DNA from: Stegostoma tigrinum
Lineage: Eukaryota
Reading direction: 5' to 3'
Assembly: GCF_030684315.1 (NCBI RefSeq)
Contig: NC_081396.1
Location: 1,984,001-2,048,000, forward strand
Length of the DNA stretch: 64,000 nucleotides
Shown here: one piece after another, positions 17,899 to 49,076 of the stretch
Layout of the letters: the number at the start of each line of letters is the position of its first letter
How positions within the stretch are numbered: the stretch's first letter is position 1
Translations under genes and position numbers: made by a program
Notes under the pieces: model-generated
The model's input: the letters and a program-made list of their open reading frames with translations, nothing else
Databases searched by the model: none
Told to the model about the DNA's origin: nothing

Positions 17899-20800
17899 AT
17901 GCATGAACCTGCTATTGGTCCGATATTTGCGATTTGCTACCCCATTCTCGCTGTTGTTGGTACCCCTGGTGAGTCATAAATCCTAAAGATGTTTCTGTTT
18001 TTGTAGATCAAAAGAGCAATTCTCTTTTCCTTTTCAGTCAGTAATATCCCTGCAGTTACAGGCTAGTCTCAGCAGTAAAGGCTTTGAAAATATCATCGTT
18101 TACGATAAAACCACGCATGGTTCTCTTTTGATCTTTCGGGAAGGCGATTATGCTATCCTTCCCTGGTCTTGACTCATTTAGACTCCAGACCCACTGCAAT
18201 GTGACATATTTTGGCTTCCCTGTGAAACGTCAGAGAATGTTTTACATTTCAAAGGAATTGAGAGAAGAACAAGAAATGCTGATCTTTGCTGCGGTGATCA
18301 ATTTTTTTGAAGTTTTTTTTGTTATTTCTGTTTTCTGGTGGAAGATGGTGCATTACATGATCTTGAATAATGAAGCATTCGACGATATTACTTGAATTTT
18401 AGGTGTGTAAATTAATAGAAATATGATCAAATAGATTGATGGACGATGAATAATAATGTATAATATCGCACAAACAATTTGTATTAATTCCATAATGCAA
18501 ATATATGTCACTCAGTCTCTCCCTCTTATCTGATGTGGAAAAGTTAATGTGCCAGCTACCATTTACAATTTCCTCTGTTTTTCATGATGTAAGATTGTTT
18601 AAAACAGAAATTTAATAACACTGTGTGTTTTGTTTTCATTAATTTCAAATACTTTTCAATCAGCACTTATTCAAATCATATTAATATATTTTCAAAAAGT
18701 CACTAATGTAAGCCTTTTTGGATTCTTTATGTTGGTTGTTAGGTGCGAAGCAGCGATTTTGGATTCTCTCGAGGGCACAGTGATCCTGTTTTAAAATAGT
18801 TTCTGCCGTTCTTGTTACATTATTTGTTTTTTGGTACTGTTACAACGTTGTCTAGTTCACTCTTTTCTGTTGTTTTACAGATCAAAGAAACCTTCTTGTG
18901 AGGGTATTTGTCAAAACTAATCTCTGAGTGCAAAGTTAAACGTACATGAATATCTAATGAAATTCCCCAGTATCTAATCAATTTAAACATCTAATTTTGT
19001 TCGAATATATGTCTACATTAATATGCAAACATAATTATTTAAAAACCTTCAACTCAGGTGGATCAAGCTTCTTGTTTCTACTTCATTCGAAATTGGAAGT
19101 TTTAAATTTAGTTTATATCTAAATCATCCTATCAGAGTCTTAGTCTCTGTATTATTTTCCCATTTTACTAAAAGGCCACGAATTGGTCGATATTAAATTC
19201 TCTATCAGATGAAATATCCTTGTACTTTTTTGTGCCAGATTTTAAAAATAAATATTAAGAGTGTATTGTAGATATTCACCGGGAGACGTGGAGAGTTCTT
19301 CAAGACATTGATTATTTATTTTCAAATAAAAACCGTGACAACCAGAAAACGAATTCTTGATTGCCCCCAAATCCCAGGGTCTGTTATTTTTTATACCTTT
19401 TAGTTATCATACCTTCTTCAAAAATATCAGCATGCCCAATGGTGTCATAGGGGTTATCTTTCTACTCTTAGGAGTAAGTCAATGCTGTTAGTTAATGTTA
19501 TTTTTCTGTTTCTGCCACTATGTTTTTTTTTCTACTTCAAACTAAGATAATGATTATTTATTGCTACATCTGCCACATTGGTCCTTCGCCTCGGGTTGAC
19601 CCCATTACATCATGCCAGTCCTTGCCTCGAGCTGATCCCATTATGTCATGCTAATCCTTACTTCTATGTTACATGCTTTAATTAACCTAATTGAGCTACC
19701 GTTAATAGCTAGTCTAGTTATACTACCATTGTTCTACACTTCTTTGACATATGTTCAAGCACCTCATTCTATTAAAGTACAGCATTCCATTGATTATTGT
19801 AACATTCCATAATTCAGTACATCATCCTACTGATCACTGTAAAATTTAACCCTTTGATCGCCCCCATATTTTTTATTTCCCATCAAGAGCTGAGGCTGTG
19901 CAGCAGTCCAGGAGGAATGGCTGATAGCTCATAGAGTCTATGTTTCACTGATCAGCATTTTCAATGATATTTATTTTGTGAAATGTTCAAATCAACATTG
20001 GATGTGGATAAATAATCATTAAGCTTGGAGTTACCAAATAGACGCATTGGGATAACTTTAGTAATAGATTAGATCAGGCATTAGTCAGTGGCTTCAGACT
20101 GCTTTGTAAAATGTCTCTCTGTTTTGATCTTGCACAGCTAACTTGGTGGCGATCATAATCCTATGCCGAGGACAGTGTGGACTTTCATTGTGTATCACCT
20201 ACTACCTAGTGGCGATAGCAGTGTCAGATTTCCTTGTCATCATTTTTGCCGTCATCCTAAACAGGATCACTCGCCTTTATTTTAGGTACAGTCTGCTTTC
20301 TACCACACCCGGGTGCAGACTCAGCACTGTACTAGTTTATGTCACCCAGGATTGTTCAGTTTGGCTGACAGTGGCCTTCACCATTGACCGCTTTGTGGCC
20401 ATTTGCTGTCAAAGTCTCAAGGTCAGATATTGCACTGAGAAAACTGCATTGATGGCCATAGCAATAGTCTGTGCTTTAGGTTGCATTAAGAACATCCCTT
20501 TCTATTTCATCTATCAGCCACTGTACGTGTTGGATGGTGTACCACGGTTCTGTGACATTAAATCGACTTTTTATGCCTTACCTATCTGGCAAGTCTACGA
20601 CTGGTTGGACCACGTCTTAACCCCCTTTCTACCATTTGTCCTCATTTTGCTGCTTAATGCCATGACCGTAAGGCACATTCTAATGGCTAGCCGAGCCCGT
20701 AAGAGACTTCGAGGCATTGAGAATGGCAGAGATACAGAGATGGCCAACCGTAGGAAGTCTATTGTTCTCCTCTTCACAATCTCTCTCAGCTTCCTCTGTT

Positions 20801-21039
20801 TGTGGGCCACGCATGTTGGACGTTTCCTCTATGTCCAGGTTACGGGTAAGGGTTACTTCATCGGCCTGGATGTCAAGGACTTGCAGTATATCTTTCAAGA
20901 GATGACGAACATGCTCCAGTTACTCAGTTCTTGCAATAACGTCTTCATATATGCAGTATCTCAGACGAAGTTCAGAAAGGAGCTGCAGAAAATAATGATG
21001 TTTCCTTTCACTGGGATCATTTCTTGCATTAATCAGTGA
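17899..21039 (+). CDS. GPR139/GPR142-like orphan class A GPCR, two exons (17899-17968, 20138-21039), 323 aa, intact
   Basis: Exon 1 MHEPAIGPIFAICYPILAVVGTP|GTGAG; acceptor GCACAG. Seven hydrophobic segments with SVWLTVAFTIDRFVAIC, PFVLILLLN and SSCNNVFIY. Phase-1 intron inside TM1, as I recall for GPR139. Confidence 0.9.
19262..19885 (-). mobile_element. Solo LTR (ERV-like) in the GPCR intron
   Basis: TG...CA ends and 4-bp direct repeat AGAG (19258-19261, 19886-19889). Both ends are homologous to 28632-29320. Orientation inferred. Confidence 0.7.
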
Positions 21040-23604
21040 CAGAAGATAATCGCATGTATTAGTTGGACTCAATGATCGGCACTGTCTTCCTCATTCTCTC
21101 TGGAATTAGTCGCCATTTTCCCACCAAGCCAGACTTGAGACGTTTTAGGCCGATATCCCAGCTTCAACTCTTCCCTGTTGGGAATGCTGAAGGAATGCTA
21201 AGCTATCCGCCTTGCTGGGTGAGATGCTAATCCATTGGGTGTGTCTACTCTCTCAGGTGGAGTGTATAATATTTCACTGTTGGAATGCCAAATAGGACCA
21301 GAAATTTATTCTCTGCCGTATTTGACCAACATTTTGTCACCATATTTTTGCTCTGAAACCAGTTTTCTGCTTGGGTCTGTCGATTTTCACTGTGGAATCT
21401 TGCTTTGTTCATCTTTGAGATTGCATTCCCAACACTACAAATGAAGCATTATTCAATTGTGAAGAATATAGTTTGCAATATGCTGAAGTTGTGAAAGATA
21501 TTGCAACAATCATTTTTCTACCTTTCTTGTTTATATATGAAGTTAATATTTATTTCCCCATGTGAGTGACGTAATAGAAATAAGACGAAATGGAGCCTAG
21601 TGAGAATGCCCAGAGCACATGAAAAAGAGAATGCTGATGTTGAAAAATGGGAAAAAAGAGATGCAAATTATATTTTAATGATTGTTATAAAATGGGCCAT
21701 ATCTCTCAGCTCTTCTGAGCAAACGCACAATGACATAAAACATTAAAGACATTTCTTTAAGAATTGAAGACAACCCTTTCAGAATCATTTTAAAAAGTGA
21801 ATGCTGGAGAAACACAGCAAGGCAGGTAACATATAGGGAGAGAGAAATATATTTAATGTTTTGCATCTGTAATGATTCTTCTTCAGAATGACATCCTCAC
21901 TGTTCTGATTCTATTTCCAGACACATGAAAGATCTGGTTGGTTAGGGTTTCTAGGTTCTCATCAAATTGAAGAACAGAGGTCATGCTGTGAAGTCATTGA
22001 ACACAATGTTTACACTTGGTTGTAAAGTGCAGCAAGTGCAGCCAACCCAATTTCCGCCAACACACAAAAGTAATCACTTTTCAGTTCCCTTCCATTCTCA
22101 AGAAGAGCCAAAATGGATATTGCAACGTTAGATCTATTTTTGTCTCTGTAGATGATGCGAAATCCAAGAGATTTGCCAACATTCTCATTTTATTTCCATA
22201 TGCATCGAAATTGAATGTTCCTACTTGACATCAAAAACTGCAAACACTATGTGCCCCAACAAAATTTCACCACTGACACTGAAGACCTCTGCTCCAGATT
22301 CAGAAGTCGCATGACACAAGGTTTTAATCTAATGTGTTTATTTGAAATCACATGCTTTGGGAGCACTGCTACATCGTCAGGTGAAAGCTTACGATTTCAA
22401 ATAAACCTACTGCATTATAATCTGGAATCTTGTGACTTCTGAATTCGTACATCCCAGTTTAACACAGGTACCTCCAAATCTGCTTCAGAAATTGTGCTTG
22501 CAGCAATCAATGTTAGCCCAACTGTGAAAATGTCAATGGCACAGCAATGTGCCAAAATGCACAGATCAGTCTGTATACAACATTCAGGGCACTTCAACCT
22601 CATGGTTACTGTCCCATCCACTTACTCTTGATTATTCACACCTGATAGAAGAGTTTGCTGACATGGCAATCAGCATCACTTCCTCAGCATTAACTTGATT
22701 AAGGATCCTCATTATACGTTCCTTCCACTGGGGCCACTCAATAATGCCACCAACACTGACTCCCCACTATCAATACCGTAGGGACTTTCTTTGGCTAGAA
22801 GTGGAATTCGCCGGATAAATACAGGGGTTAAAAGAGCAGGCCAGAGGCTAGGAATCCCGCAGCAAGTAGCTCCCTTCCATAGTCCGCAATTATAATCATG
22901 ATATCTTAAGAACTGTTTCCACAGCCATGCTCAAACTCATCTTAGTCTGTTGCACCTCACATCTGCTAGCCAATTTTCCAGGTCAAGATTGAATTCACGA
23001 TCTGCCAGTGTTTGTCCCAAGTAGCTCATTGGAACTGGGAACTGAATGGTCAGAGGCAGCTGGAGGCAAGGCAAAGGAGAAGCAGTCACATTCTTCTTCT
23101 AGTCTTCTGCACAATGTTAATCCTTGAAATGTTCATCTTGTCGTCGTTGGTTTCAATATGAAGAAAAAAATGGAACTGTGATAATCTGATTGTTTTTAAC
23201 CAAAGTACTGCAGGTAAGTAAGCAACAGGCTAATGGTTACAGGAACCTGCTTTGAGGTGCTCAGCTGCATTGAAGGAACGGCAACAATTATCGTGCCATT
23301 CAATTCCTCTGATTCTAGACTTAGGCAAGAAATGGTCAATAGCTTCAGGCAGAATTTGTTCATAGTCTTGAATCGAAATGACCATGATTGGAAGCGTGTG
23401 AATACATTTCACTGGCGTCAGTTGTAAAATAGCAGACTGAATGTAACTAAAATGATGGGAAGGTCTTGCAAAAATGAAGAGATATTGATGTCAGTACTTG
23501 AAGGAAAATGTGTTTCCTTTTTATAGGAACCTTTGTTCCTTCAATTTTTTTTTCAAACTGAGGACAAGTGAAGTGAGGCAGTGATGGTTTGTACAAAAAA
23601 AAAC

Positions 23605-23825
23605 GTTGTTAGGAAATCTCCGAAGGTCTGGCAGCATCTGTGAATTACAACACAAAGTTAACGTTTCGGATCTGGAGACAGTTCCTCACAACTGAAGACG
23701 AGCCTCTGGAACCAAAACGTTAAATCTGATTCTTTTCTTCACAGATGCTTTCAGACCTGCTGACATTTTCTAACAACTTCTGTTTTTGTTCCTGATTTAC
23801 AACATTCACAGTTCTTTCGTTTTCA
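23605..23825. repeat. Palindromic, decayed Penelope-tail-like repeat
   Basis: GGTCTGGCAGCATCTGTG...GTTAACGTTTCGG is mirrored by CCAAAACGTTAA...CACAGATGCTTTCAGACC. Related half copies lie at about 845-905 and 60500-60620. Confidence 0.6.
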
Positions 23826-24144
23826 TTTCGTGATGGTGTTTATTTTTGGCTGCTCTTCTTGTGAATATTGCCATTCTCAGTCATATATCTTTTATCACAA
23901 TTCTCCGCGACCTGAGGTAAATGCCATCAACAAGATACGTGGTGCAATGGCTAATGGGTCTGATGACAAGCCCCACGAAAGTGGGTTTGATTTCAATCTC
24001 GATGAGATGCATTTTGCCAATGTTGATTTGTCTCTTCACAAACTGACTGAAGCACAGCTGGTTATACAATCAGAGAAGTCCAGATTGAAAAAGCCTTTCA
24101 GCCCGTTGGGACACTTTGGTCAAAAGCATCCACCTGATTATTCT

Positions 24145-25661
24145 AAGATAATAAAATGTGAGGCTGGATGAACACAGCAGGCCAAGCAGCATCTCAGGAG
24201 CACAAAAGCTGACGTTTCGGGCCTAGACCCTTCATCAGAGAGGGGGATGGGGGGAGGGAACTGGAATAAATAGGGAGAGAGGGGGAGGCGGACCGAAGAT
24301 GGAGAGTAAAGAAGATAGGTGGAGAGGGTGTAGGTGGGGAGGTAGGGAGGGGATAGGTCAGTCCAGGGAAGACGGACAGGTCAAGGAGGTGGGATGAGGT
24401 TAGTAGGTAGCTGGGGGTGCGGCTTGGGGTGGGAGGAAGGGATGGGTGAGAGGAAGAACCGGTTAGGGAGGCAGAGACAGGTTGGACTGGTTTTGGGATG
24501 CAGTGGGTGGGGGGGAATAGCTGGGCTGGTTGTGTGGTGCAGTGGGGGGAGGGGATGAACTGGGCTGGTTTAGGGATGCAGTGGGGGAAGGGGAGATTTT
24601 GAAACTGGTGAAGTCCACATTGATACCATATGGCTGCAGGGTTCCCAGGCGGAATATGAGTTGCTGTTCCTGCAACCTTCGGGTGGCATCATTGTGGCAG
24701 TGCAGGAGGCCCATGATGGACATGTCATCAAGAGAATGGGAGGGGGAGTGGAAATGGTTTGCGACTGGGAGGCGCAGTTGTTTGTTGCGAACTGAGCGGA
24801 GGTGTTCTGCAAAGCGGTCCCCAAGCCTCCGCTTGGTTTCCCCAATGTAGAGGTAGCCGCACCGGGTACAGTGGATGCAGTATACCACATTGGCAGATGT
24901 GCAGGTGAACCTCTGCTTAATGTGGAATGTCATCTTGGGGCCTGGGATGGGGGTGAGGGAGGAGGTGTGGGGACAAGTGTAGCATTTCCTGCGGTTGCAG
25001 GGGAAGGTGCCGGGTGTGGTGGGGTTGGAGGGCAGTGTGGAGCGAACAAGGGAGTCACGGAGAGAGTGGTCTCTCCGGAAAGCAGACAGGGGAGGGGATG
25101 GAAAAATGTCTTGGGTGGTGGGGTCGGATTGTAAATGGCGGAAGTGTCGGAGGATAATGTGTTGTATCCGGAGGTTGGTAGGGTGGTGTGTGAGAACGAG
25201 GGGGATCCTCTTGGGGCGGTTGTGGCGGGGGCGGGGTGTGAGGGATGTGTCGCGGGAGATGCGGGAGACGCGATCATGGGCGTTCTCAATCACCGTGGGG
25301 GGAAAGTTGCGGTCCTTAAAGAACTTGGACATCTGGGATGTGCGGGAGTGGAATGTCTTATCGTGGGAGCAGATGCGGCGGAGGCGGAGGAATTGGGAAT
25401 AGGGGATGGAATTTTTGCAGGAGGGTGGGTGGGAGGAGGTGTATTCTAGGTAGCTGTGGGAGTCGGTGGGCTTGAAATGGACATCAGTTACAAGCTGGTT
25501 GCCTTCAGATGGAGACTGAGAGGTCCAGGAAGGTGAGGGATATGCTGGAGATGGCCCAGGTGAACTGAAGGTTGGGGTGGAAGGTGTTGGTGAAGTGGAT
25601 GAACTGTTCGAGCTCCTCTGGGGAGCAAGAGGCGGCGCCGATACAGTCATCAATGTACCGG
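24145..25661 (-). mobile_element. Penelope-like retroelement, 5'-truncated (RT C-terminus + GIY-YIG endonuclease + tail)
   Basis: RYIDD...TFLDL RT motifs; KPTDSHSYL; SIPYSQFLRLRRIC; VVYCIHC...LYIGETKRRLGDRFAEH (GIY-YIG). One frameshift near 25505. Confidence 0.92.
24209..24240 (-). ncRNA. Minimal hammerhead ribozyme motif in the Penelope tail
   Basis: Reverse complement is CT-CTGATGA-A-GGG TCTAGG CCC-GAAA-CG-TC-AG. Confidence 0.75.
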
Positions 25662-26966
25662 ATTCCATCCCCTATTCCCAATTCCTCCGCCTCCGCCGCA
25701 TCTGCTCCCACGATAAGACATTCCACTCCCGCACATCCCAGATGTCCAAGTTCTTTAAGGACCGCAACTTTCCCCCGACGGTGATTGAGAACGCCCTTGA
25801 CCGCGTCTCCCGCATCTCCCGCGACACATCCCTCACACCCCGCCCCCACCACAACCGCCCCAAGAGGATCCCCCTCGTTCTCACACACCACCCTACCAAC
25901 CTCCGGATACAACGCATTATCCTCCGACACTTCCGCCATTTACAATCCGACCCCACCACCCAAGACATTTTTCCATCCCCTCCCCTGTCTGCTTTCCGGC
26001 GAGACCACTCTCTCCGTGACTCCCTTGTTCGCTCCACACTGCCCTCCAACCCCACCACACCCGGCACCTTCCCCTGCAACCGCAGGAAATGCTACACTTG
26101 TCCCCACACCTCCTCCCTCACCCCCATCCCAGGCCACAAGATGACATTCCACATTAAGCAGAGGTTCACCTGCACATCTGCCAATGTGGTATACTGCATC
26201 CACTGTACCCGGTGCGGCTACCTCTACATTGGGGAAACCAAGCGGAGGCTTGGGGACCGCTTTGCAGAACACCTCCGCTCAGTTCGCAACAAACAACTGC
26301 ACCTCCCAGTCGCAAACCATTTCCACTCCCCCTCCCATTCTCTTGATGACATGTCCATCATGGGCCTCCTGCACTGCCACAATGATGCCACCCGAAGGTT
26401 GCAGGAACAGCAACTCATATTCCGCCTGGGAACCCTGCAGCCATATGGTATCAATGTGGACTTCACCAGTTTCAAAATCTCCCCTTCCCCCACTGCATCC
26501 CTAAACCAGCCCAGTTCATCCCCTCCCCCCACTGCACCACACAACCAGCCCAGCTCTTCCCCCCCACCCACTGCATCCCAAAACCAGTCCAACCTGTCTC
26601 TGCCTCCCTAACCGGTTCTTCCTCTCACCCATCCCTTCCTCCCACCCCAAGCCGCACCCCCAGCTACCTACTAACCTCATCCCACCTCCTTGACCTGTCC
26701 GTCTTCCCTGGACTGACCTATCCCCTCCCTACCTCCCCACCTACACCCTCTCCACCTATCTTCTTTCCTCTCCATCTTCGGTCCGCCTCCCCCTCTCTCC
26801 CTATTTATTCCAGTTCCCTCCCCCCATCCCCCTCTCTGATGAAGGGTCTAGGCCCGAAACGTCAGCTTTTGTGCTCCTGAGATGCTGCTTGGCCTGCTGT
26901 GTTCATCCAGCCTCACATTTTATTATCTTGGAATCTCCAGCATCTGCAGTTCCCATTATCTCTTAT
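25662..26966 (+). mobile_element. Penelope-like retroelement, second copy, inverted relative to the first
   Basis: ORF 25577-26611 carries the same GIY-YIG domain with only a handful of substitutions versus the left copy. The composite is flanked by ACCTGATTATTCTAA (24132-24146, 26967-26981). Confidence 0.92.
26834..26865 (+). ncRNA. Minimal hammerhead ribozyme motif in the Penelope tail
   Basis: CT-CTGATGA-A-GGG TCTAGG CCC-GAAA-CG-TC-AG: conserved CUGANGA/GAAA/UH core with a very short palindromic stem III. Confidence 0.75.
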
Positions 26967-32575: not shown

Positions 32576-33040
32576 GGACTTTGCACAGGCTTCCCTGTTT
32601 CTCTGCAACAATGGGTACTCCATAGCAGAGAAGTTTGCAGCATTGTAGGGGAGAATAGATCACATATTTTCTTTCAAATGTACTAATTTGTTTCCTCTGC
32701 TCAAAACAGCAGAAAATCTGTCTGTGAAGTTTTCAGTCACTACAGTCGTGATGTACATCTTGAATTCATATCTCAGATATTTCACAGGAAAAAGGACATA
32801 CAGGATTTGAGTTTGCCAACTAGCTGCTGAGTAACTCCAGTATTGAATTGAAGTCTGTCCTTCAGAACCACTAATTCTGAACGATCCTGGAACACCTCAC
32901 CTTTGCCATTAACCCTGCAACAAATGCAGAATTGATCGAATAATTTCCAGAGCATAATTCACAACGACAATACTGGTAATTAAAGCATTTACTTATCAAG
33001 CAGTATTTCCGATATTATTAGTGAAAAAACATTGAAACAT
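32576..33040 (-). pseudogene. TCR-type V pseudogene
   Basis: Leader ATG at 33040 with mutated donor (ATAAGT); acceptor TTGCAG at 32915. GEVFQDRSELVV/SEGQTSIQYWSYS...ENFTDRFSAVLSRGNKLVHLK...NFSAME. RSS remnant CCCATTG + 24 nt + GCAAAGTCC. Confidence 0.72.
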
Positions 33041-34664
33041 GGAGCCTGTTTTACACCTTCAGAGAAACAACAGAATTGATTCAATGTGATGATACTTCCA
33101 AATTGATGAAAAAGACCAAACGCAGATCAGCAACTAGCATCACTTAACGGAAATATGAGGGGCACTCCCCAAGATGGAGAATTCGTTACTGCCTCGAAAC
33201 TGACAAAGATGAGGCATCAAAATTATCTGACATTCCACTTCAGCTGTCTGTTTTTTTTTTTCTGTCTCTTCTTGGCAGTCTTTCTCTGTGTCTCACCTTT
33301 TCTCTTAATCTCCAACTTAATCTGGTGCTAGGTTCTTAGGGATGTCTGAATCTAAACTGCACATCCACCCTTCCCCAACGGCAACATCTTAGAATTTCTC
33401 TCTTTCAAAAATATCCAAGAAAATACTTCTGTAAAGATGGCAAATTACCCCAGTTTTGCATTTGTCCAGTTTCCCAAATGTAATGATACGTGAATGGAAA
33501 TGTTATGGCAGAGAAAAAAAATATATAAGTTAATAGCAATAACACCCTGTTTATTTTACAAAAAAAGCATTGTAAGAGTTTTGCTTAGATAACAATAAAC
33601 TTCTAACAAAACTGTTTTATTAATCAAAGTGAGCTAATTAGCACCAGCGAATCAGCTGAACCTGTAGTGTATTAGACACTAAGATTATCAAGAAGTAACT
33701 GTAGAATAAGACCATTTCACCTGTCGAATCTGCTTCACCATTAAGTGAGATTATGGCTGATCTGAAAATCTTCAATTTCACTGTCTCTCCACCAACATTT
33801 CCCCATGAATCCACATTCCTTTAACAATGCAAACTTTGTCTATATTTTCCTCATTCCTTTAAGCGCTGTAAAATGTCAGGTGATTTTTGTTTTAATGCAG
33901 CAGCAGACCAGTCACATTTACTTATCACCCATATCAACAACATGGATGAGGAAATCCCCTGTAATATTTCCAAGTCTGCCTTCTCTGCAAGACGAAAGGG
34001 TGAAATCACTGAAGCTGGCTTGGGCATTGACAAGACCACGCCTGGAGTGCAATTTATCAACGCATTACTGAAGGAAACATATACATTTCGTAGAGAGAGT
34101 GCTGCAAAGAATCAACAGATTGATTCCTGACATGGCAGTTTTCTGAATGGGACAATGGTAATAAAGAGATGTTTCCACTGACGAGCACTTCTACATTAAG
34201 TGGTCATAGTCCAGTCTAAGCAGTAGGCCATTTCAGACTGAGATGAGGAGAATAGTGTGTGCTAAGAGAGTGCTGAAGCTGGGGAATTCTCTGTTAAAGA
34301 CGTCTGTAGGCGCAACTTTACTGAATAGGTATTTTATTTTAAGGGCACAACGTTCATTGATTCTGACAGAATCGCTCTGTCTTTGCTGATTGCAATATCA
34401 GAATTTCACTGACACATGAAGAGGTTGTACATTAACAATAAGCCAGGAGTCGAAGCCAGGACATGACAGTCAAAGTGTTGACTCCTCGCCATTGTCACAC
34501 CAGGGCAAATAAGACAGACGTGTGCATATTTTAGTAACGATACTGTTTTTTGACTGCATTTAATTCACGCTCACCAACCATGAGTTTCTCCAATAAAATG
34601 GTGGAGTTATCGAATATCTGTTATTAATTTGTTATTGTTACTTGACGTAAGCTTTCTACTTTAG

Positions 34665-37600
34665 TACTGAGTGGGTGTTCAGATAAGTGGGGTATGGATG
34701 CTAGGGCAGTTGTTTGCTCCTCCTGCAGAATGTGGCAGTTGGGAGACGTGGCACACGTCTCCGCAGGCTACATCTGCGGGAAGTGCACCCAACTACAGCT
34801 CCTTGAAAACCGTGTTAGGGAAATGGAGCTGGAGCTGGATGAACTACGGATCAATCGGGAGGCAGAGGGGGTAATTGAGAGGAGTTACCGGGAGTTGGTC
34901 ACTCCTAAGGCTCAGGACAAGGATAGATGGGTTACAGTTAGGGGGAGGAAAGGGGACAGACAGACAGTGCAGAGATCCCCTGTGGGCATTCCCCTCAGCA
35001 ATAAGTATACCGTTTTGGATACGGCTGGGGGGGATGACCTACCAGAGGAAAGCCATAGTAGTCAGTGCTCTGGCACTGAGCCTGACACTGTGGCAAAGAA
35101 GGGAAGGGAGCAAAATAGAAAAGTACTTGTGGTACGGGACTCGATAGTTATGGGAATTGACAGGAGATTTTGTGGTCAGGATCGGGATTCCCGGAAGGTA
35201 TGTTGCCTCCCTGGTGCCAGGGTCTGGGACGTCTCCGATCGGGTGTATAAGGTTCTAAAAGGGGAGGGTGAACAGCCAGAAATCGTGTTACATATTGGCA
35301 CAAATTATATAGCCAGAAATAGGATTGAGGATATAAAAAGTGATTTCAGGGAGTTAGGATGGAACCTGCAGAGCAGGACGAACAGAGTAGTGTTCTCTGG
35401 TTTACTACCAGTGCCACGAGATAGTGAGGCGAGGAAGAGGGAGCGGGCGCAGCTGAACACGTGGCTACTCAGTTGGTGTAGGAGGGAGGGCTTCAGATAT
35501 GTAGATAATTGGGATGCCTTCTGGGGAAGGTGGGACCTGTACAAGAAGGACGAGTTGCATCTGAACTGGAAAGGGACCAATGTCCTGGGTGGAAGGTTTG
35601 CTCGAGTAGTTCGAGAGGGTTTAAATTAGTATGGCAGGGGAGTGGGAACCTGAGCTGTATACCGGAGGTGAGAGCTGATGCAGGTGAGGCAGTAGCAAGT
35701 GGTAGACCAGCTAGTGGGAAGGAACCAAGGGATCGGTTAAAGTGTGTTTGCTTTAATGCAAGGAGTATCAGGAATAAAAGTGATGAACTTAGAGCATGGA
35801 TCAGTACCTGGTGCTATGATGTTGTGGCCATAACAAAGACATGGGTTTCTCATGGGCAGGAATGGTTGCTGGATGTTCCAGGGTTTAGAACATTTTAAAA
35901 GAATAGAGAGGGGGGAAAAAGAGGAGGGGGTATAGCACTACTAATCAGAGAGGGTATCACAGCTACAGAAGCTTCCATTGCCGGGAAGATCTGCCTACTG
36001 AGTCAGTATGGGTGGAAATTAGGAACAGCAAGGGAGTAGTCACCTCGTTAGTGGTTTACTACGGGCCCCCCAATAGCAGCAGGGAGATTGAAGAAAGCAT
36101 AGGTCGACAGATTTTGGAAAAGTGTGGACGCAGTAGGGTTGTTGTAATGGGTGACTTTAACTTTCCTAATATTGATTGGAACCTCCTTCGAGCAGAAGAT
36201 TTGAATGGAGCTGTTTTTGTAAGGTGTGTTCAGGAGGGTTTCCTAACGCAGTACGTTGACAGGCCGACGAGGGGAGAGGCCATTCTAGACTTGGTGCTCG
36301 GAAACGAGCCAGGGCAGGTATCAGATCTTGTGGTGGGAGAGCATTTTGGTGATAGTGACCATAACTGCCTCACATTCTACATAGCTATGGGTAAGGAGAG
36401 GATTAGGCAAAATGGGAGGATATTTAATTGGGGAAGAGGAAACTATGACGCGATTAGACATGAGTTAGGAAGCATGGACTGGGAGCAATTGTTCCATGGT
36501 AAGGGAACTATAGACATGTGGACACTGTTTAAGGAACTGTTGTTGCGAGTGATGAGTAAATATGTCCCTCTGAGACAGGCAAGAAGGGGTAAGATACAGG
36601 AACCTTGGATGACGAGAGCGATGGAGCTTCTTGTGAAAAGGAAGAAGGTAGCTTTCATAAGGTGGAGGAAGCTAGAGTCAAGTTCAGCTAGAGGGGATTA
36701 CACGCGGGCAAGGAAGGAGCTCAAAAATGGTCTGAGGACAGCCAGGAGGGGGCATGAGAAAGGCTTGGCAGAAGGAATCAGGGAAAACACAAAGGCATTT
36801 TACACTTACGTGAGGAATAAGAGAATGGTCAAAGAAAGAGTAGGGCCGATCAGGGACAGCATAGGGAACTTGTGTGTGGAGGCTGAGGAGGTAGGGGAAG
36901 CCCTAAATGAGTTTTTTGCTTCTGTCTTTAGGAAAGAAACGAACTTTGTCGTGAATGAAACCTTTGAAGAGCAGGTGTGCATGCTGGAATGGATAGAGAT
37001 AGAGGAAGCTGATGTGCTGAAAATTTTGTCAAGCATTAAGATTGACAAGTCGCCAGGCCCGGACCAGATTTGTCCTCGGCTGCTTTGGGAAGCGAGAAAT
37101 GCAATTGCTTCGCCACTTGCGAAGATCTTTGCATCCTCGCTCTCCACTGGAATCGTACCTGAGGACTGGAGAGAGGCAAATGTCATTCCTCTCTTCAAGA
37201 AAGGAAATAGGGAAATCCATGGCAATTACAGACCAGTAAGTCTCACGTCTGTCGTCTGCAAGGTGTTAGGAAGGATTCTGAGGGATAGGATTTATGACCA
37301 TCTGGAAGAGCATGGCTTGATCAAATACAGCCAACACGGCTTTGTGAGGGGTAGGTCATGCCTTACAAACCTTATCGAGTTTTTTGAGGATGCGACTAGA
37401 AAAGTTGATGAGGGTCGAGCTGTGGATGTGGTGTATATGGACTTCAGTAAGGCATTTGATAAGGTTCCCCATGGTAGGCTCATTCAGAAGGTCAGGAGGA
37501 ATGGGATACAGGGGAACTTCGCTGCTTGGATACAGAATCGGCTGGCCAACAGAAGACAGTGAGTGGTAGTAGAAGGAAAATACTCTGCCTGGAAGTCAGT

Positions 37601-38590
37601 GGTGAGTGGGGTTTCACAGGGCTCTGTCCTTGGGCCTCTACTGTTTGTAATTTTTATTAATGACTTGGATGAGGGGATTGAAGGATGGGTCAGCAAGTTT
37701 GCAGAGGACACAAAGGTTGGAGGTGTCGTTGACAGTATAGAGGGCTGTTGTAGGCTGCAGCGGGACATTGACAGGATGCGGAGATGGGCTGAGAGGTGGC
37801 AGATGGAGTTCAACCTGGATAAATGCGAGGTGATACATTTTGGAAGGTCGAATTTGAAAGCTGAGTACAGGATTAAGGATAGGATTCTTGGCAGTGTGGA
37901 GGAACAGAGGGATCTTGGTGTGCAGATACATAGATCCCTTAAAATGGCCACCCAAGTGGACGGGGTTGTTAAGAAAGCATATGGTGTTTTGGCTTTCATT
38001 AACAGGGGGATTGAGTTTAAGAGCCGTGAGATTTTGTTGCAGCTCTATAAAACTTTGGTTAGACCGCACTTGGAATACTGCGTCCAGTTCTGGTCGCCCT
38101 ATTATAGGAAAGATGTGGATGCTTTGGAGAGGGTTCAGAGGAGGTTTACCAGGATGTTGCCTGGACTGGAGGGCTTACCTTATGAAGAGAGGTTGACTGA
38201 ACTCGGTCTCTTTTCATTGGAGAAAAGGAGGAGGAGAGGGGACCTAATTGAGTTATACAAGATAATGAGAGGCATAGATAGAGTTGATAGCCAGAGACTA
38301 TTTCCCAGGGCAGAAATGGCTAGCACGAGGGGTCATAGTTTTAAGCTGGTTGGTGGAAAGTATAGAGGGGATGTCAGAGGCGGATTCTTTACACAGAGAG
38401 TTGTGACAGCATGGAATGCGTTGCCAGCAGCAGTTGTGGAAGCAAGGTCATTGGGGTCATTTAAGAGACTGCTGGACATGCATATGGTCACAGAAATTTG
38501 AGGATGCGTACATGAGGATCAATGGTCGGCACAACATTGTGGGATGAAGGGCCTGTTCTGTGTTGTACTGTTCTATGTTCTATGTTCTAT
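34665..38590 (+). mobile_element. CR1-clade LINE, near full length, ORF2 disrupted
   Basis: ORF1 34694-35629 has CxxC zinc/coiled-coil and SGNH esterase motifs (RDSIV, LHIGTN, LHLN). ORF2 has APE (FNARS, MGDFN, DSDH) and RT (DFSKAFD, QGSVLGP, KFAED) with stops near 35898 and 37560 and a frameshift near 35990. Tail (GTTCTAT)n. Confidence 0.95.
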
Positions 38591-40512: not shown

Positions 40513-40829
40513 AGACATTGTATGGCCTGGTCTCCTATTTGTCTCACTGTACCTGGGCTGCACATTAATACCGGTTTCCTCGGCCACAGTGTGATATATA
40601 GTAATGGATTTTGCCTTCTTTGCTCACTCACATGAAAGTGTGTTGCATCCAACTATCACATTTCTCTGGTGTATGTAGCCGACAAATGTCGGAGGCCCTG
40701 CCACCGATTGCCTACTAATGGAAACATTATCACCAGAACCAATGGAGTGCCGAAAGTCAGGTTCACCTGGTTTCCCTTCCAGAGACAGCACCTGGTTAGC
40801 CTGTGAGCTCTCGTCCTCGCACAGAACGA
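40513..40829 (-). pseudogene. TCR-type V pseudogene with 23-RSS remnant
   Basis: Acceptor TTACAG; VLCEDESSQANQVLSLEG/NQVNLT...RQSVAGPPTFVGYI...SITIYHTVAEETG/Y*CAAQ. RSS: TACAGTG + 23 nt + ACAATGTCT. Confidence 0.75.
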
Positions 40830-41436: not shown

Positions 41437-41720
41437 TCCATCTCGTGGTCTCTCTATCTTTGTCTGTCTCTTTATCTCCATCCCTCTATGCCTGTCTCCC
41501 TTTCTTCTCTCTTCCTTTATTTGTCCCTCTCTCTCTCTCAAAGTATAGCAAATGATAGAGTGCTTGCTCAATTATAAATTCGGTCCATCTCGCTGTCTCT
41601 CTATCTTTGCCTGCCTCTCTATCTCTGTCCTCTATGCCACTCTCCCTTTCTTCTCTCTCCCTTTCTCTATCCCTCTCTCTCAAAGTACAGCGAATGATTG
41701 AGAGCTTGCAAAATTAGGAC
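41437..41720 (+). repeat. Two-copy tandem duplication (about 147 bp) of a CT-rich unit
   Basis: TCCATCTCG..GTCTCTCTATCTTTG...CTCTCTCAAAGTA.AGC.AATGAT.GAG.GCTTGC occurs twice. Confidence 0.75.
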
Positions 41721-42900: not shown

Positions 42901-43979
42901 TTTCGCTTGTGAATTTCAGGAGTGTCCAATAGATGGGGGCCTCGGAATGGTGAACTGAAGCACCAACTCCACATTCACGGTGCTAGTCAGTTACGTTAAT
43001 TGTGCAAATAATGGAATGAATGATCGCCTAGTTTGGTCTCTTGGGCATAATCATGCAGAGATAAATCCTTAAGAATGAAGCTATTTTATTAAGCAGAAGA
43101 AAACAGATTGGAGACGCGATGAGACAAGTTGAATTTTTATCGAAAATTCTGTATTTTTTTAAAATAAAATGATTTGTATCACACTTTTACAAACGTCATG
43201 AATGAATTATATTTTAAGGGGAAGTCATCATTGGGCAACGACATACACATATTAAAGGATTGCCCTCTGACAGTAGAATTTGTCCAGTAAAAGCCAACAA
43301 AAGATATGGAAGATGGAATAGGAATGTCACCATGAAAATATGAAACACAGCCTGGGATGTTATTTCTGAAGGCACTTGCCATACTAACCATGGTGGTCAA
43401 AGAAAGTGGGAGGTAAAGGAGGACCAAACCATTTCGATTTTTCCTGCCCATATCATTTTGTAATCCGTCTGACAGTTAAAAGGCTCTTAATACTCAGTTG
43501 ATGTGGCAACACTAGTCCTAAATTGTAGGGAGTCCAGTCAAGTGGTTGAAGCGCGAGTTGGCGAGAATTTTTGGGATTAGTGCCCACGATTCTGCAAATT
43601 CTTAAGTCATTATGGAAATGGACAAGAAAAGTGCAGAAGTTATCCATCTAATTTGGGGGAAAGTCAAGTCCAATATAGTTGGACACTTTCTGGCAATCAT
43701 CTGGTAGTAGTGACTTGTAGGTAAGTCTACATTTGGAAAAACGGAATCCCGTTATAAGTAGTTTAATGAGAATGAGAATCCGGGCCAGTGTGATCCTCTA
43801 AGAGTAAAGGGTACGTGGCAAAAGTTTAGTGAATTCTAGGTGCCAAGGGATGAATTTGTCTGGCAAAGAAAAGGAAGGAAGCACAGAGTAATTTACTTGC
43901 CAAAAATATTTTAAAAAGCAGGAACGTCCTTCTGAAGTATAGAGTGTGATGGGCAGCTTTAAAAAAGAAGTTTGGAGGG

Positions 43980-45420
43980 CAAATCGTGTCCATGAAACAT
44001 CTTTGGCAGATAGGATCAATATATCCCAAGTCATTTTACAATTATATTGAGAGTAAAAGGAATTCTTGGGAATGCGTAGCGCCTATTAGATTTCAATGCG
44101 GAAACCTGTGCATGAAGCCATTGAACTTTGCTGAGCCACAAAAGAACGAAGAAAATTATAGCGCTGGAAGAAGACTTTGGCCCTCCATGCCTGCACTGAC
44201 ATGCTACCCATCACTAAAACCCCCTACCCTTCCTGGGAACGTATTTGTCTATTCCCATTTTATGCATGTATTTGTCAAGATATCTGCTTCAAGGACTTCC
44301 CCCAAACAGAATGTTACAGGACCCAAAACACTTAGTGTAAAAAAAGACTTGTCTCGTACATCGAAATTAAACATTGTCCCTTGCACCATAAACCTACTGT
44401 CCCGAGTTGCTGATTCTTCCATCCTGTGAAAACGTTTCTGATTGTCTGCATTGTCCATGCCCTTCATAATCCTGTAGACCTCTATCAGGTCTCCCTCAAC
44501 CTCTGTCGTTCCAGTGTGAACAACGAAAGTTTTGTCAATCTCTCCACATGTCTAATGCCCTCCATAACAGATCACATCCTGGTAAATCTTTTCTGAACCC
44601 TTTCCAAAGCCATCACTAACTTCTGGCCATGTGCCACTGTGGAGGAACACATTATTGCTGGCGATTTGATTTAGGATGATGAGGTTCTAGAACATTCTGG
44701 GACTTATATGGAAGATGAATGAGATTTGTTTTGACGTTAGTAAGAATACATAGATTCCCAAGCTCCGATGAAATGCACCCAGGTTGCCATGGAAGCCAAG
44801 GGAAGATATTGTTGAGAGCCTGGCAGATGTCCTCAGTGGTTCACTCCCCACAGGAGAAGTGTTGGATAACTGATCGTGAGCTAATATAGTTCCTTTGTTC
44901 AAGAAGGGAAGCAGGGATACATAAATTATTACAGGACAGTTCGACCGACATCAGATGTGAGAAAAGTATTGGAGAAAATACTCTGAGTGAAAGGATTTAA
45001 CCTCATTTGAAGAGGCAAAGTTTAACTGGGATAGGCAGCCTGGATTTGTTAGCAGTGGTTCATGTCTGATTAGGTTAATTGAGTTTTGTTTTGCAAAGTG
45101 GGATAAATATAATGGTGGAGGTCTTGCAGCCTTTGAGGCTCATATAGACTTCAGTAATGCCTTTGGCGACATTGCTGCATGGAATGCTGATCCACAAGGC
45201 AAGACCTCGTGTGATCCAAAGTAAATCTAAAATTATCCTGGAAATAGGAGGCAGAGGGCGATTGTGAAACATTGTTTTGTGATTGGAAGTCTCTGACCAT
45301 GGACATTCCGCAATGTTCAGTGCAGGTACCCCTGCTGTTTGTTATGCATACTAACAACGCGTGTGTTAATGCAGAAGGAAGATTGCAAATCGCCACGAAA
45401 CACTTTGGGAAATTAGTGAT
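43980..45420 (+). mobile_element. Old CR1 ORF2 remnant with a nested opposite-strand CR1 3' fragment (about 44140-44630)
   Basis: PKSFYNYIESKR...GNLC and PLFKKG/DFSNAF-like remnants; minus-strand RFHRMEESATR...SFFT. Confidence 0.7.
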
Positions 45421-45884
45421 AAGAAACAAATAGTGATCAAGCCAACGGCATGAGTGTCCTATAAGATAATAGTGGACATGTGTTTCAACCCAGCTCCATG
45501 TCTGTAAAGTGGAAAGTTCTCTCCGTTGTGAACGCTGGTGCTAACACACTTCGACATGCTTCCATTCAATCAGAGCTAACATACTCCCTATTCGTCTCAT
45601 TGTATTCTGAGCGCATAAAGAGTGAAATGAGACCTAACAGAAGACTGTTGATGACAGCGATTAGAACCAATATTTTCAAATATCCAGCTCTGTTGGCGTA
45701 GTCTGGGCAAATCAGCACAGCTGCTGGGTCTGGGTTGGGTGAGGGGCATTTGTGACATTCTCATATTCTGAATTCTGACTAAACACATTCTATCTCTTCT
45801 CTCATTTGGAGAACAAAGTTTGAATCTGGATTTTTTTAATATCCACCCCTCGATTATTTCCTCACTGAGCATTTTTAATGGATT

Positions 45885-46213
45885 ATAGAGATTCTATCAC
45901 TCAGCCTTTGCCCTCATATGTTTAGACAGAAGGATAAGAGCAGATTTTAATCTTTTCCTATCACCTGGCCTGGGGTTACTCTTATTTATTCTGGTACTGA
46001 CAACATCAATACTGACAGCCTGAGTTTATTCCATAAAGGCATTCAAGTGGTTCAGAATATGAAGCAGACTTTGTCGAAAAGTGCTTCAACCTCCAGATAC
46101 TGAATGAATTAGCCAGTTTAACTATCTCGTGTCTGAAGCTGACTGACTGTCTGGTGAGTTACTGAGCTCTCAGGCTCAGTGTTGGAAAACTTCTAGTACG
46201 AACTACAAAAAAA
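45885..46213 (+). pseudogene. TCR alpha/delta-type V pseudogene with 23-RSS
   Basis: One frame with stops: DSITQPLPSYV*TEG*...YSYLFWY*QHQY*QPEFI...ADFVEKCF...ASLTISCLKLTDCLVSY*ALR. RSS: CTCAGTG + 23 nt + ACAAAAAAA (46175-46213). Confidence 0.85.
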
Positions 46214-46717
46214 GCCTCAAATTCTAGTGTGCTGCTTCTTTTTCTTTTGAATGTGCAATCACAATTGACCATTCCTCTTTGTCTGACACTGGAAATTGTC
46301 TGATTTGTCACTACAATGCCTCATTTATTTTCTTCACAAAATGTTAGTCTTTGTCTCGATTTATGTCACTCTGGCCAATAACTCAGTTAGTTGGATGGTA
46401 GAACATTAAACATAGTTGAATAACGAATCATTTCTTCAATCAATTTTACAGGAGTCTGTGTTTCTATTTATTTCGTACCAGCCACGGTCTCAGCATACAA
46501 TATGTCCGCAATAATGGGGAACAACAAATGGTGTTTTATTTTCAGTTGACATTAAGGATCATGAGTGTTCAGAATGTATGGATGTCCTGATATTGGTGAT
46601 TTTCACTGCTATTTTTGCCTGTTTAAATTGCATGTTTCCATCTGAGAGTTGTAACATGGCACTTTTGGAAAATTGCACTCTGTTGACTTTGAATACACCC
46701 ATTGTGTAAACTTCGAA

Positions 46718-49076
46718 TCATTTAAGAAATTGCAGCAATGGATATTTCAGCCAATTCTGTAGCTCGACTCTAAATTTATTCAGTGTTCCAGCATAAATGA
46801 ATGGGTTAATGCAGGAACACAAAAATAACAGCATGAATCCATTCTCTTCAAGGATAAATGTCGATTTACTGAAACCAGAACCGGAGAAATAGGTAACTTT
46901 AGCAAATCGGACATACAGGATCGTTATAAAAGATAACAGATACAACAATAGGAAACTGCCTGAAATTGCAAAGAGTAAAACAATGGACCTTCTCCGCTTC
47001 TCCATCTCTGGATCACTCTGATGCTGTCCGTGACTCTGGCCCCGAAGTCTCCTGCGGGATCTCATGGCCACTAGAATGCATCGAACAGTCAGAGCATTGA
47101 GTAGTAAAATCAGAATGAATGGTAGAAGAGGATTGAAAATGCTACGAATTAAATCATATGCTGCCCATGCAGGTGAACTATAAAATATTAGCTTTGGATT
47201 GCAGAACCAAGATACATTTTTAAACGTGTACAGAGGTTCATATATAAAATATAGAAATGCACTTTTAATGCAACACAATACAGACACAACTCCTATGGCC
47301 CTCGCTGCTGTCTGTTTGGTGCAATATTTAGTTTTCAGCTCCTGACAAGAAATCATCACAAATCTATCAAAGGTGAAAGAGACAGTTAACCAGGTTGAAC
47401 TATCTACAGCAGTGGAGGTTAAGACAGTGCGGAGACTGCAAACTGGAGTGATGGAAAGGAAACTGTATGGAAAGTAAATCCCAGCAATCCGGTTTAGTAC
47501 TACAGAGGTAACCAGCACCAGGAGATCTGACACCGCAATGGACAGCAGGTAAAGAATCACACAGGCAGACAGACCACATCTTCTCTGAGACAGAATCGCA
47601 ATCACAGTCAAATTAGCTGTAAAAGACATTGAGAAAGAAGAAGGGTGGGAGATATGGGGTGGCGGAGAGACAGAGGGAGAGAATTTGTGTTTCATAATGT
47701 GGAAGAACAGTCAAACTACTTCTTCAATTTATGGTAAAATTATCTATTTCACTGGATAAACTGTGAAGCATATAACTATGATCATTATACCTTGCACCAG
47801 GTGCCATCGTTATTGCATTCAAAATAAACGTACAGCTTAAAAATATGCTTGGATTTTAGCAGACATCTGCAACAAGAGTAAGTCATATCTAGAAAACAGT
47901 GTTCCATTAAATGACCCAGATGAATAATAACAGCAAAATACTTCAGAAAAATGTTGCAGTGGGCAAATAGTAAAGTGACAATCAACTTTGTGGAAAGTGG
48001 TTGGAACACGGGTTACACTTCATTCAGGGTCAAATACAATTTGTTTTTAGGGAATGAGTTGAAACTATTCACAGAAACTATATGCTGAGATAAATATGGA
48101 AACAAAACAAAGCGTGGGCTAATTTCACTTTTCCACGTTTCGAAAGAAATGTGGACAGCACTGAATTTTAATATTGACTTCTTCAGCTGATAATTGCATG
48201 GACCTTTGGTGTGCAGTTCTGCAATGCTTGGAATCTTACCTTCTCCGAATTACTTACAAATCAATAATAGAAATGCTTCAAAAAGGAAACCAGTGCTATT
48301 CGTAGTAGTTTGCATGTGATCTCATTATGCCAACAAAAGTAAACCAGAGTTGCCCTAGATCTAAATTCGACGTCTCTCATAATAAACTGCTATTTCTATC
48401 ATTTTAAAGTAGCAATGACAAAATGAAAAGCATTGCACTGCAGTAATTTTGTGATATTTGGTCCTTGAAAGCACTACTAATAATACAGAATAATTGCACT
48501 AACCTAGATAACAATATCGTAAGTCTTCCACAGTGATCGGGAGCAAAGCAATATATCTATGTTTATATCTTGAGATGATAATGATAAAGGGGGGTCGGGG
48601 CTAGTATTACAACGTTAACATGACACACGTCACTCACAGGCACATAAGCATGAAAGGGGTAAATTAGGCAGTTCATGAGAAAAAAAAACGACACGGGAAA
48701 GCTGGTGAAACAACATGTCAAATAAGACAAATGAAAATATACACATGGAGAGAAATTATCTCAGTCAATATCATAACTTATTAAATTATTTGGCGAGGCA
48801 AGACATTTAAAGTAAAATAATGATGGTGTAATTAAAAAGCAGAAATAATATCACATCAAGCGAAAATTTTGTACCGTTGAAGTGATACTAGTATCTAGTT
48901 AAGAGCAGAAAGAATATATATCATGGAGATGAGCTCGTGGCAAAGTGACGAATTGATGCAGTTGACCAACGATCCACGCAGCTACGACTGAAGTTCTATA
49001 CCTCACCTGGCACTCCGATTACTGCAAGGATGGGATAGTAAATGGAAAATACCAGACCTTTCGGTATTCCATGCAT
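46718..49076 (-). CDS. GPR139/GPR142-like orphan class A GPCR, two exons (49076-49007, 47616-46718), 322 aa, intact
   Basis: Exon 1 MHGIPKGLVFSIYYPILAVIGVP|GTGAG; acceptor TTACAG. STWLTVSFTFDRFVMI, PFILILLLN and SCINPFIY. Same 70-nt first coding exon and intron phase as the paralog at 17899. Confidence 0.9.

What the first reader, a model, noticed from the sequence alone, without database searches (positions are those of the whole stretch)
17899..49076. Two intact GPR139-like orphan GPCR genes embedded among dead TCR V segments
Seen: two divergent paralogs (roughly half identical by eye) in opposite orientation, with identical exon architecture and very short N-termini. Both are fully open while the neighbouring V segments carry multiple lesions. 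One ends about 500 bp from a V pseudogene RSS and starts about 4 kb from the NAR-TCR leader. Established, from memory: this family is greatly expanded in cartilaginous fishes, and mammalian GPR139/142 respond to aromatic amino acids. Inference: the GPCRs co-duplicate with V cassettes. If they lie inside a rearranging locus, V(D)J recombination would delete or invert them clonally or bring them under TCR enhancers, giving T cells clone-specific GPCR complements. This is a candidate undescribed system.
Basis: partly seen in the sequence, partly recalled or inferred. Interest (0 to 1): 0.72.

Follow-up and report, generated by a model that had tools for sequence, protein, structure and literature searches.

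The report
Shark orphan receptors inside TCR locus
Two intact cell-surface receptor genes from a very large, little-studied shark gene family sit among the T-cell-receptor segments and were copied along with them, but they are likely passengers that T-cell rearrangement would mostly flip rather than delete, and nothing yet shows that T cells make them.

Summary
Both genes are real, intact, two-exon class A GPCRs, 50% identical and under purifying selection. They lie in the V array of the one TCRα/δ locus found, about 1.05–1.09 Mb from Cδ. Gene B is head-to-head, 3.9 kb from an intact NAR-TCR cassette. Co-duplication with V cassettes is shown by collinear flanks, but survival is uncoupled: of 8 B-plus-NAR cassettes only this one keeps both parts, and a 39-kb V+GPCR unit repeated five times keeps 5 V but 2 GPCRs. 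Most intact V segments face away from D-J-C (38 of 47), so joins would mainly invert the genes, not delete them. A 29-nt family signature occurs 1,532 times in the genome, 30 of them in the V-array DNA read. The genes have their own conserved promoter and are not GPR139 orthologues (about 25% identity). Best reading: residents of the locus, like olfactory receptors in mammalian TRA/TRD. Clone-specific expression is geometrically possible but untested; no RNA run was listed. The scan noted this interleaving before, in this genome and others. The family's size is the more notable result.

The parts
17899..17968 (+). GPCR A exon 1 (short N-terminus and first half of TM1)
   Evidence: ATG, 70 nt, GT donor
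20138..21039 (+). GPCR A exon 2 (rest of the 7TM, stop included); member of a subfamily resident in the V arrays
   Evidence: open frame, 7tm_1 E 8.7e-22; omega 0.14-0.19 against its 8 nearest paralogues; whale shark sister P0019, 91% identical
17790..17830 (+). GPCR A proximal promoter motifs (TAATTG plus CCCTCCAGA, AATAAA at -77)
   Evidence: aligned and positionally conserved among paralogue promoters; function inferred
49007..49076 (-). GPCR B exon 1
   Evidence: ATG, 70 nt, GT donor
46718..47616 (-). GPCR B exon 2
   Evidence: open frame, 7tm_1 E 6.7e-19; omega 0.17 and 0.20 against its two nearest paralogues
49125..49165 (-). GPCR B proximal promoter motifs (TAATTG plus CTCCCTGCAGA, TATAAA at -56)
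   Evidence: function inferred
11895..12176 (-). V pseudogene, TCR alpha/delta type
   Evidence: in-frame stops, no RSS found
32666..32875 (-). V relic
   Evidence: stops and frameshifts
40567..40815 (-). V pseudogene
   Evidence: frameshifts and a stop
45890..46213 (+). V pseudogene with a broken 23-RSS (heptamer CTCAGTG)
53006..53512 (+). NAR-TCR leader (53,006-53,048), NAR V (53,185-53,474) and RSS, intact
   Evidence: gene model P0001 matches
53848..54295 (+). NAR-TCR D (53,855-53,869) and J (54,243-54,295) with RSSs
56348..56695 (+). supporting Vdelta (no leader exon of its own in gene model P0001) with RSS, intact
   Evidence: V-set E 5.5e-13

Best explanation
The two genes are intact members of a very large shark class A GPCR family that sit in the TCR alpha/delta V array and were duplicated together with V cassettes, and they are likely passengers expressed from their own promoters rather than parts of a T-cell diversification system. 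Shown: 10-60 kb segmental duplications copied V segments and GPCRs as units; afterwards each part survived or died on its own; the surviving GPCRs are under purifying selection. Inferred: that selection acts on a receptor function unrelated to the neighbouring V, most likely sensing small molecules or peptides, as one of many birth-and-death paralogues. A keeps 3 of the 4 residues that human GPR139 needs for Trp/Phe activation and a conservative change at the fourth; B keeps none. Inferred from geometry: in a T cell, V-(D)-J joining would usually leave the genes untouched (proximal V) or invert them, and rarely delete them on one allele. An inversion by the window's own NAR-TCR cassette would put B's start 7.6 kb from the joint, so bystander transcription in those cells is plausible but probably incidental.
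For: Co-duplication: non-coding DNA of the window is collinear at 63-73% identity with C55 2.25-2.30, 5.15-5.21, 5.25-5.30 and 5.32-5.33 Mb, across both GPCR and V positions; younger copies run at 70-90% across GPCR and V positions together. Uncoupled survival: of 8 cassettes with a B-type gene beside a NAR-TCR position, 1 has both intact, 2 have B intact with the NAR part dead, 3 have B dead with the NAR part intact, 2 have both dead (Fisher p = 1, small n). A 39-kb unit repeated five times keeps 5 of 5 main V but 2 of 5 GPCRs, and the three dead copies share one stop. Of the 4 A-type copies only the window's is intact. Family mostly elsewhere: 1,532 signature matches (control 0), 30 in the V-array DNA read; 50 in 5.6 Mb of C10 and 37 in 4 Mb of C9. 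Selection: omega 0.14-0.20. Own promoter motifs shared across paralogues. Orientation: 38 of 47 intact non-NAR V are inversional; 14 of the 19 distal to B. Precedent: olfactory receptors among TRAV genes (PMC4574546) and trypsinogens in TRB (PMC2685407).
Against: The association is old and local: 24 of the 27 best genome matches to A lie in the two V arrays. Whale shark, Heterodontus and Hemiscyllium proteins of this family share contig lengths with their NAR-TCR V models (contig level only). Signature density in the V-array DNA read is far above the genome mean of 0.48 per Mb. B sits head-to-head with an intact NAR-TCR promoter, a layout that favours co-activation. The tissue of expression and the ligand are untested, so the sensory role is a guess. 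No segment of exon 2 showed pN/pS above 0.5 in 7 recent paralogue pairs, so I found no sign of diversifying selection on a ligand pocket. The GPCR-versus-Vdelta distance test was inconclusive (Spearman 0.48, p = 0.078, 6 cassettes).
Confidence: 0.7

Rival explanations
1. Rearrangement-coupled receptor choice: inversion brings the GPCR just upstream of the used V under the TCR enhancers, so each T-cell clone expresses a V-linked GPCR, and selection maintains this.
For: The genes lie inside the recombining interval. After inversion by the window's Vdelta, B's ATG would be 7.6 kb from the joint and about 21 kb from Cdelta, against 1.09 Mb in the germline. B has a conserved place upstream of NAR cassettes. 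In mouse the Tcra enhancer can selectively activate a non-TCR gene (10.64898/2026.04.27.721065, passages).
Against: At least 3 intact NAR cassettes carry a dead B, and 2 intact B copies sit by dead cassettes. The tandem unit lost GPCRs but kept V. 13 of the 47 intact V lie in a GPCR-free zone. GPCRs are not closer to V than random positions.
Confidence: 0.07
2. The family is a set of leukocyte receptors (comparable in role to FPR or MRGPR families) that clusters with immune genes and is expressed by cell type, not by clone.
For: Large clusters lie on the Ig/TCR contig C55 and next to C1-set/V clusters on C10 and C54. An EBF-like promoter element, named from memory, would also fit B cells.
Against: Searches of the 4 held supplement files of a cartilaginous-fish lymphocyte single-cell paper gave 0 hits for the GPR139/GPR142 names (gene ids may hide them). 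No signature match is listed on C5, which holds another V array with a single C exon. Clusters on C9, C11, C14, C58 and C61 were not shown to be immune regions.
Confidence: 0.18
3. The open frames are recently inactivated or neutral copies, or the layout is an assembly artefact.
For: 27 of 57 family loci in the DNA read are broken. C55 1.20-1.58 Mb was only partly read and 2.51-5.15 Mb not read.
Against: omega 0.14-0.20; a 91% identical whale shark sister for A; independent contigs tile B to Vdelta without a coding break; no N in 0.83-1.20 Mb, where D-J-C and V face apart.
Confidence: 0.05

Closest known systems
Olfactory receptor genes among mammalian TRAV genes (human OR10G2, OR4E2; mouse Olfr1507-1509; PMC4574546, passages)
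   Same: Intact class A GPCR genes of a large multigene family interspersed among V segments of the TCR alpha/delta locus.
   Different: Different family, two exons; 55 loci read in the V arrays rather than 2-3; copied within V cassettes; mostly inversional geometry.
Trypsinogen genes in the TRB locus (PMC2685407, passages)
   Same: Non-receptor-segment genes that expanded by duplication inside a TCR locus and kept synteny across species.
   Different: Secreted proteases in blocks near the ends of the V array (5-20 copies), not alternating with V segments.
Human GPR139 / GPR142 (PDB 7VUG; PMC5430874, abstract)
   Same: Best solved-structure sequence match for A (E 3.2e-12); databases label the family 'probable GPR139'; A keeps H187, W241, N271 and has Tyr at F109.
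   Different: About 25% identity (71 of 281 residues, counted by eye); B keeps none of the four residues and gives no GPR139 match at 1e-5; the shark family has an invariant C3.25 where GPR139 has none; the fold search ranks 7VUG 16th among peptide receptors.
Short-N-terminus 'probable GPR139' proteins of salamanders, coelacanth and teleosts (P0346, P0357, P0368); possibly the GPR210A/B groups of PMC6504862
   Same: Nearest named non-chondrichthyan relatives among the 10 of 150 profile hits looked up; 29-35% identical to A.
   Different: Small clusters (1-5 members); identity with GPR210 was not tested.
Teleost TRA/TRD loci with V in opposite orientation (PMC8559430, passages); elasmobranch AgR complex and NARTCR (PMC12227049, abstract, passages, section 6)
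   Same: Inversional rearrangement keeps the intervening DNA; TCR alpha/delta, NARTCR and IgH clusters are linked on one chromosome.
   Different: The main text of PMC12227049 has 0 occurrences of GPCR, GPR or protein-coupled.

Membership tests
Class A (rhodopsin-like) GPCR | 7TM fold and Pfam 7tm_1 | tested here: met
   (model of whale shark orthologue P0019, pLDDT 85, seven TM helices)
Class A (rhodopsin-like) GPCR | D3.49-R3.50, P5.50, C3.25, N7.49..Y7.53 | tested here: met
   D, R, P, C and N in 30 of 30 intact copies, Y7.53 in 29 of 30; P6.50 is absent from A and B, P7.50 absent from A
GPR139/GPR142 orthologues | Nearer to GPR139 than to other lineages, with high identity | tested here: not met
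   About 25% to human GPR139 against 33-35% to salamander and coelacanth orphans; no GPR139 row was in my trees, so this rests on identity
GPR139/GPR142 orthologues | Trp/Phe site F109, H187, W241, N271 (PMC5430874) | tested here: inconclusive
   A has Y, H, W, N; B has S, S, Y, F
GPR139/GPR142 orthologues | Activation by L-Trp or L-Phe | not testable with these tools
   needs a cell assay
Passenger genes in a TCR locus (OR-in-TRA, trypsinogen-in-TRB type) | Located between usable V segments and D/J | tested here: met
   19 intact non-NAR V lie distal to B; D-J-C at 0.84-0.96 Mb
Passenger genes in a TCR locus (OR-in-TRA, trypsinogen-in-TRB type) | Survival independent of neighbouring V | tested here: met
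   small numbers
Passenger genes in a TCR locus (OR-in-TRA, trypsinogen-in-TRB type) | Main expression outside T cells | not testable with these tools
   no RNA run was available to lay (see Tried and rejected)
   1 of 8 B-NAR cassettes keeps both; tandem unit 5 V against 2 GPCR
   needs paired single-cell TCR and RNA data
NARTCR cassette | Leader-NAR V-D-J followed by a supporting Vdelta with its own RSS | tested here: met
   detailed layout recalled, general description in PMC12227049

The most novel reading that the evidence does not exclude
Sharks carry a receptor repertoire of olfactory-receptor scale (1,532 signature copies in this assembly) that my literature searches did not find described. 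Because the TCR alpha/delta locus rearranges mostly by inversion, each join would park a different resident GPCR beside the active TCR promoter and enhancers, so that, for example, NAR-TCR cells using this cassette switch on gene B: antigen-receptor choice would set a second, chemosensory receptor.
Probability: 0.07. Interest if true: 0.9.

Novelty: new variant of a known kind. Interest (0 to 1): 0.48.

Why it matters
If the passenger reading holds, it extends a mammalian oddity (chemoreceptor-type genes inside the TCR alpha/delta locus) to sharks with an unrelated family. It also points to a very large GPCR family that databases label as GPR139 although the genes are not its orthologues. Sharks are recalled to have few olfactory receptors, so finding where this family is expressed bears on how they sense chemicals. 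The window offers a clean test of enhancer capture: one intact GPCR 3.9 kb from one intact NAR-TCR cassette.

Tried and rejected
Expression: no RNA holder listed for window 17,800-21,100; the four listed runs gave contigs only and were used for polymorphism. D-J-C was first sought at C55 5.8-6.0 and 2.3-2.5 Mb and not found; an exact RSS pattern did not find it either. The fold search did not single out GPR139. Mantel-type GPCR versus Vdelta test inconclusive. No pN/pS above 0.5 in any exon-2 segment; exon-1 counts were too few to judge. My first two intact/broken rules miscalled some genes; one search is the corrected count, and the omega values use its 27 called copies. The subfamily-A pattern (28 of 49 matches in or beside the V arrays) was designed on V-array copies, so it is circular and not used as support. 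The 120-row tree is a quick search on rows chosen by likeness to A. The promoter list counted one promoter twice (28 distinct). Sequences of family members outside C55 0.83-6.0 Mb were not obtained, so they are absent from trees and omega. Literature: searches found no paper describing the family or its place in the locus; Ott 2021 was not held; the catshark supplement could not be read; 12 of 24 whale shark supplement files were searched, 0 hits; bioRxiv supplements are closed, and the tandem-cluster figure and table of 10.1101/2025.06.08.657570 may list this family.
Full report
Observation. Both genes are as described. A (+) has a 70-nt first exon at 17,899 and a second exon at 20,138-21,039, giving 323 aa; B (-) has a 70-nt first exon at 49,076 and a second exon at 47,616-46,718, giving 322 aa; 163 of 326 positions are identical. 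Both match 7tm_1. Contigs from at most two other samples show no coding stop or frameshift. The window holds four broken V segments and one intact NAR-TCR cassette: leader, V, D, J and supporting Vdelta. B ends 505 bp from a broken RSS and starts 3,930 bp from the NAR leader, head to head.

Where the window lies. It is G000:C55:1,984,001-2,048,000 on a 16.4-Mb contig; the database record that matches the cassette exactly is labelled Stegostoma tigrinum. A TCR constant-region query gave one Cdelta-type exon at 947 kb and membrane exons at 944.6 and 843.5 kb, all on the minus strand. Between them lie a long run of J segments at 850-916 kb, a short run at 950-961 kb and a D at 961 kb, all minus; naming them Jalpha, Jdelta and Ddelta is inferred from this order. 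V segments start at 971 kb. In 2.05 Mb read (window included; 1.20-1.58 and 5.35-5.70 Mb only in part; 2.51-5.15 Mb, which holds many C1-set exons, not read) I found 149 V segments, 54 with an open frame and RSS. Leaving out 7 NAR V, 38 of 47 are on the plus strand and would join by inversion, and 9 by deletion. Teleost loci are described as inversional too (PMC8559430, passages). Nineteen of these V lie beyond gene B: 14 inverting, 5 deleting, the latter all more than 3 Mb away. So the genes are inside the recombining interval but would seldom be lost.

The family. Three protein searches gave 219 distinct loci, 32 of them in the two V arrays; these searches score only the best candidates. A 29-nt TM3 signature that catches 27 of 30 intact copies matched 1,532 places genome-wide, with 0 for the reversed control. 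That number includes pseudogenes and probably haplotig duplicates, and only the first 100 places were listed. Thirty-two matches fall in the DNA I read, 30 of them in V arrays. Clusters elsewhere are of comparable density: 50 in 5.6 Mb of C10, 37 in 4 Mb of C9. None is listed on C5, where 10 V-set hits and one C exon suggest another TCR locus (identity not tested). In the DNA read there are 57 loci, 30 with an intact exon 2, none in the D-J-C region or in the first 235 kb of the V array, which has 37 V. Within fully read arrays the median distance to a V is 6.0 kb for intact and 6.2 kb for broken GPCRs, against 3.7 kb for random points, which may overlap a V.

A local subfamily. Gene A belongs to a well-supported clade with members in several galeomorph sharks and a whale shark sister at 91%. 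Twenty-four of A's 27 best genome matches lie in the V arrays. B belongs to another clade; its nearest paralogues (83%) lie at 5.19 and 5.26 Mb. In whale shark, Heterodontus and Hemiscyllium, family members and NAR-TCR V models are recorded on contigs of the same length. Residence in the locus is therefore old, which tells somewhat against pure accident, though tandem duplication alone produces local clades.

Co-duplication. Non-coding DNA of the window aligns collinearly at 63-73% with four other regions, spanning GPCR and V positions. Younger copies align at 70-90% across GPCR and V positions together. A 39-kb unit of one GPCR, one intact V and V relics is repeated five times at 2.07-2.24 Mb, up to 98.9% identical. 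This disagrees with an earlier scan note on the 5.2-Mb region that called them neighbours rather than a jointly copied unit.

Uncoupled survival. In the tandem unit all five main V are intact, while three GPCR copies share one stop at codon 160, so a dead gene was copied along. Of eight B-type genes at the same place beside a NAR-TCR position, one has both parts intact (the window), two are intact beside dead cassettes (5.19, 5.26 Mb), three are dead beside intact cassettes (5.53, 5.60, 5.67 Mb), and two are dead beside dead ones (2.27, 5.33 Mb). Three further cassettes (5.39, 5.74, 5.78 Mb) showed no B-type gene in the flank read, and one at 5.64 Mb was not read. A functional pairing of V and GPCR predicts the opposite pattern.

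The receptors. omega is 0.14-0.19 for A against its eight nearest paralogues and 0.17-0.20 for B against its two nearest. Among 30 intact copies mean identity is lowest in outer TM3 (0.48), TM6-ECL3 (0.49) and ICL3 (0.50) and highest in inner TM6 (0.81), but no segment exceeds pN/pS 0.5 in seven recent pairs. Paralogues share promoter motifs at fixed spacing: a TATA-like AATAAA near -78 in 16 of 28, and a CCTCTGGAGA-like element often preceded by TAATTG. The likeness to homeodomain plus O/E sites of olfactory promoters is recalled and was suggested by an earlier scan note. A is about 25% identical to human GPR139 and keeps H187, W241 and N271 with Tyr at F109 (residues from the abstract of PMC5430874); B keeps none. 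A model of the whale shark orthologue is a standard 7TM bundle that matches many peptide receptors equally. A profile search and look-up of 10 of 150 hits found nearer relatives in salamanders, coelacanth and teleosts at 29-35%, perhaps the GPR210 groups of PMC6504862 (passages; not tested). The Atlas lists shark-type 'probable GPR139' clusters first, then invertebrate FMRFamide-receptor-like clusters.

How it most likely works. Shown: intact, selected receptors, copied with V cassettes, surviving independently, inside a mostly inverting locus. Inferred: they are residents driven by their own promoters, probably sensing small molecules or peptides in non-T cells, and rearrangement moves them as a side effect. 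The closest known case is olfactory receptors among mammalian TRAV genes (PMC4574546, passages), then trypsinogens in TRB (PMC2685407, passages). No expression data could be tested.

Novelty. Searches found no description of the family or of its place in this locus. PMC12227049 (abstract, passages, section 6) maps the region without mentioning GPCRs; 10.1101/2025.06.08.657570 (passages) names only GPR91 in its main text, and its supplements were not seen. PMC11372145 was seen as a listing and a supplement search, PMC8455134 as a listing and a partial supplement search, PMC11979771 as a listing only. Subscription papers, including Ott 2021, were not seen. The scan itself noted the interleaving before, in this genome and in other sharks and skates. 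Verdict: a new variant of a known kind, interest 0.48, most of it owed to the size of the family and to the clean test the window offers.

Noticed in passing
window 56,658-56,870: The supporting Vdelta is followed by a short run of RSS-like units about 61 bp apart, with a second near-perfect 23-RSS at 56,781; extra RSSs also follow supporting Vdelta at C55 5.397, 5.539, 5.702 and 5.784 Mb (5 of 11 examined). An in-frame stop follows the first heptamer, so use of the second looks non-productive.
   Followed up: partly
G000:C55:5.39-5.78 Mb: Five NAR-TCR cassettes with both V intact in the DNA read (5.39, 5.53, 5.60, 5.67, 5.74 Mb) lie 4.4-4.8 Mb from the only Cdelta found, across a region rich in C1-set exons (probably IgH clusters); they would need multi-megabase inversions.
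   Followed up: partly
whole genome G000: 1,532 matches to the family signature, with dense arrays at the starts of C9 and C10; the C10 array ends about 50 kb before C1-set/V clusters.
   Followed up: partly
G000:C55:9.0-9.2 Mb: A third small group of minus-strand V segments interleaved with family members, far from D-J-C.
   Followed up: no
window 24,140-26,934: Inverted pair (1,273 bp, 99.1%) of an element with a weak GIY-YIG match, probably Penelope-like.
   Followed up: partly
window 34,646-38,498 (+) and 7,300-11,500 (-): A LINE-like element with endonuclease and reverse transcriptase broken by a stop, and a second broken non-LTR reverse transcriptase element.
   Followed up: no
window 53,506: One-base deletion inside the NAR V RSS nonamer in contigs of 2 of 4 runs, probably an allele.
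   Followed up: no
G000:C55:0.97-5.81 Mb: Minus-strand (deletional) V are more often broken than plus-strand V: 9 of 51 intact against 45 of 98 (Fisher p = 0.0006; duplicated copies are not independent).
   Followed up: partly
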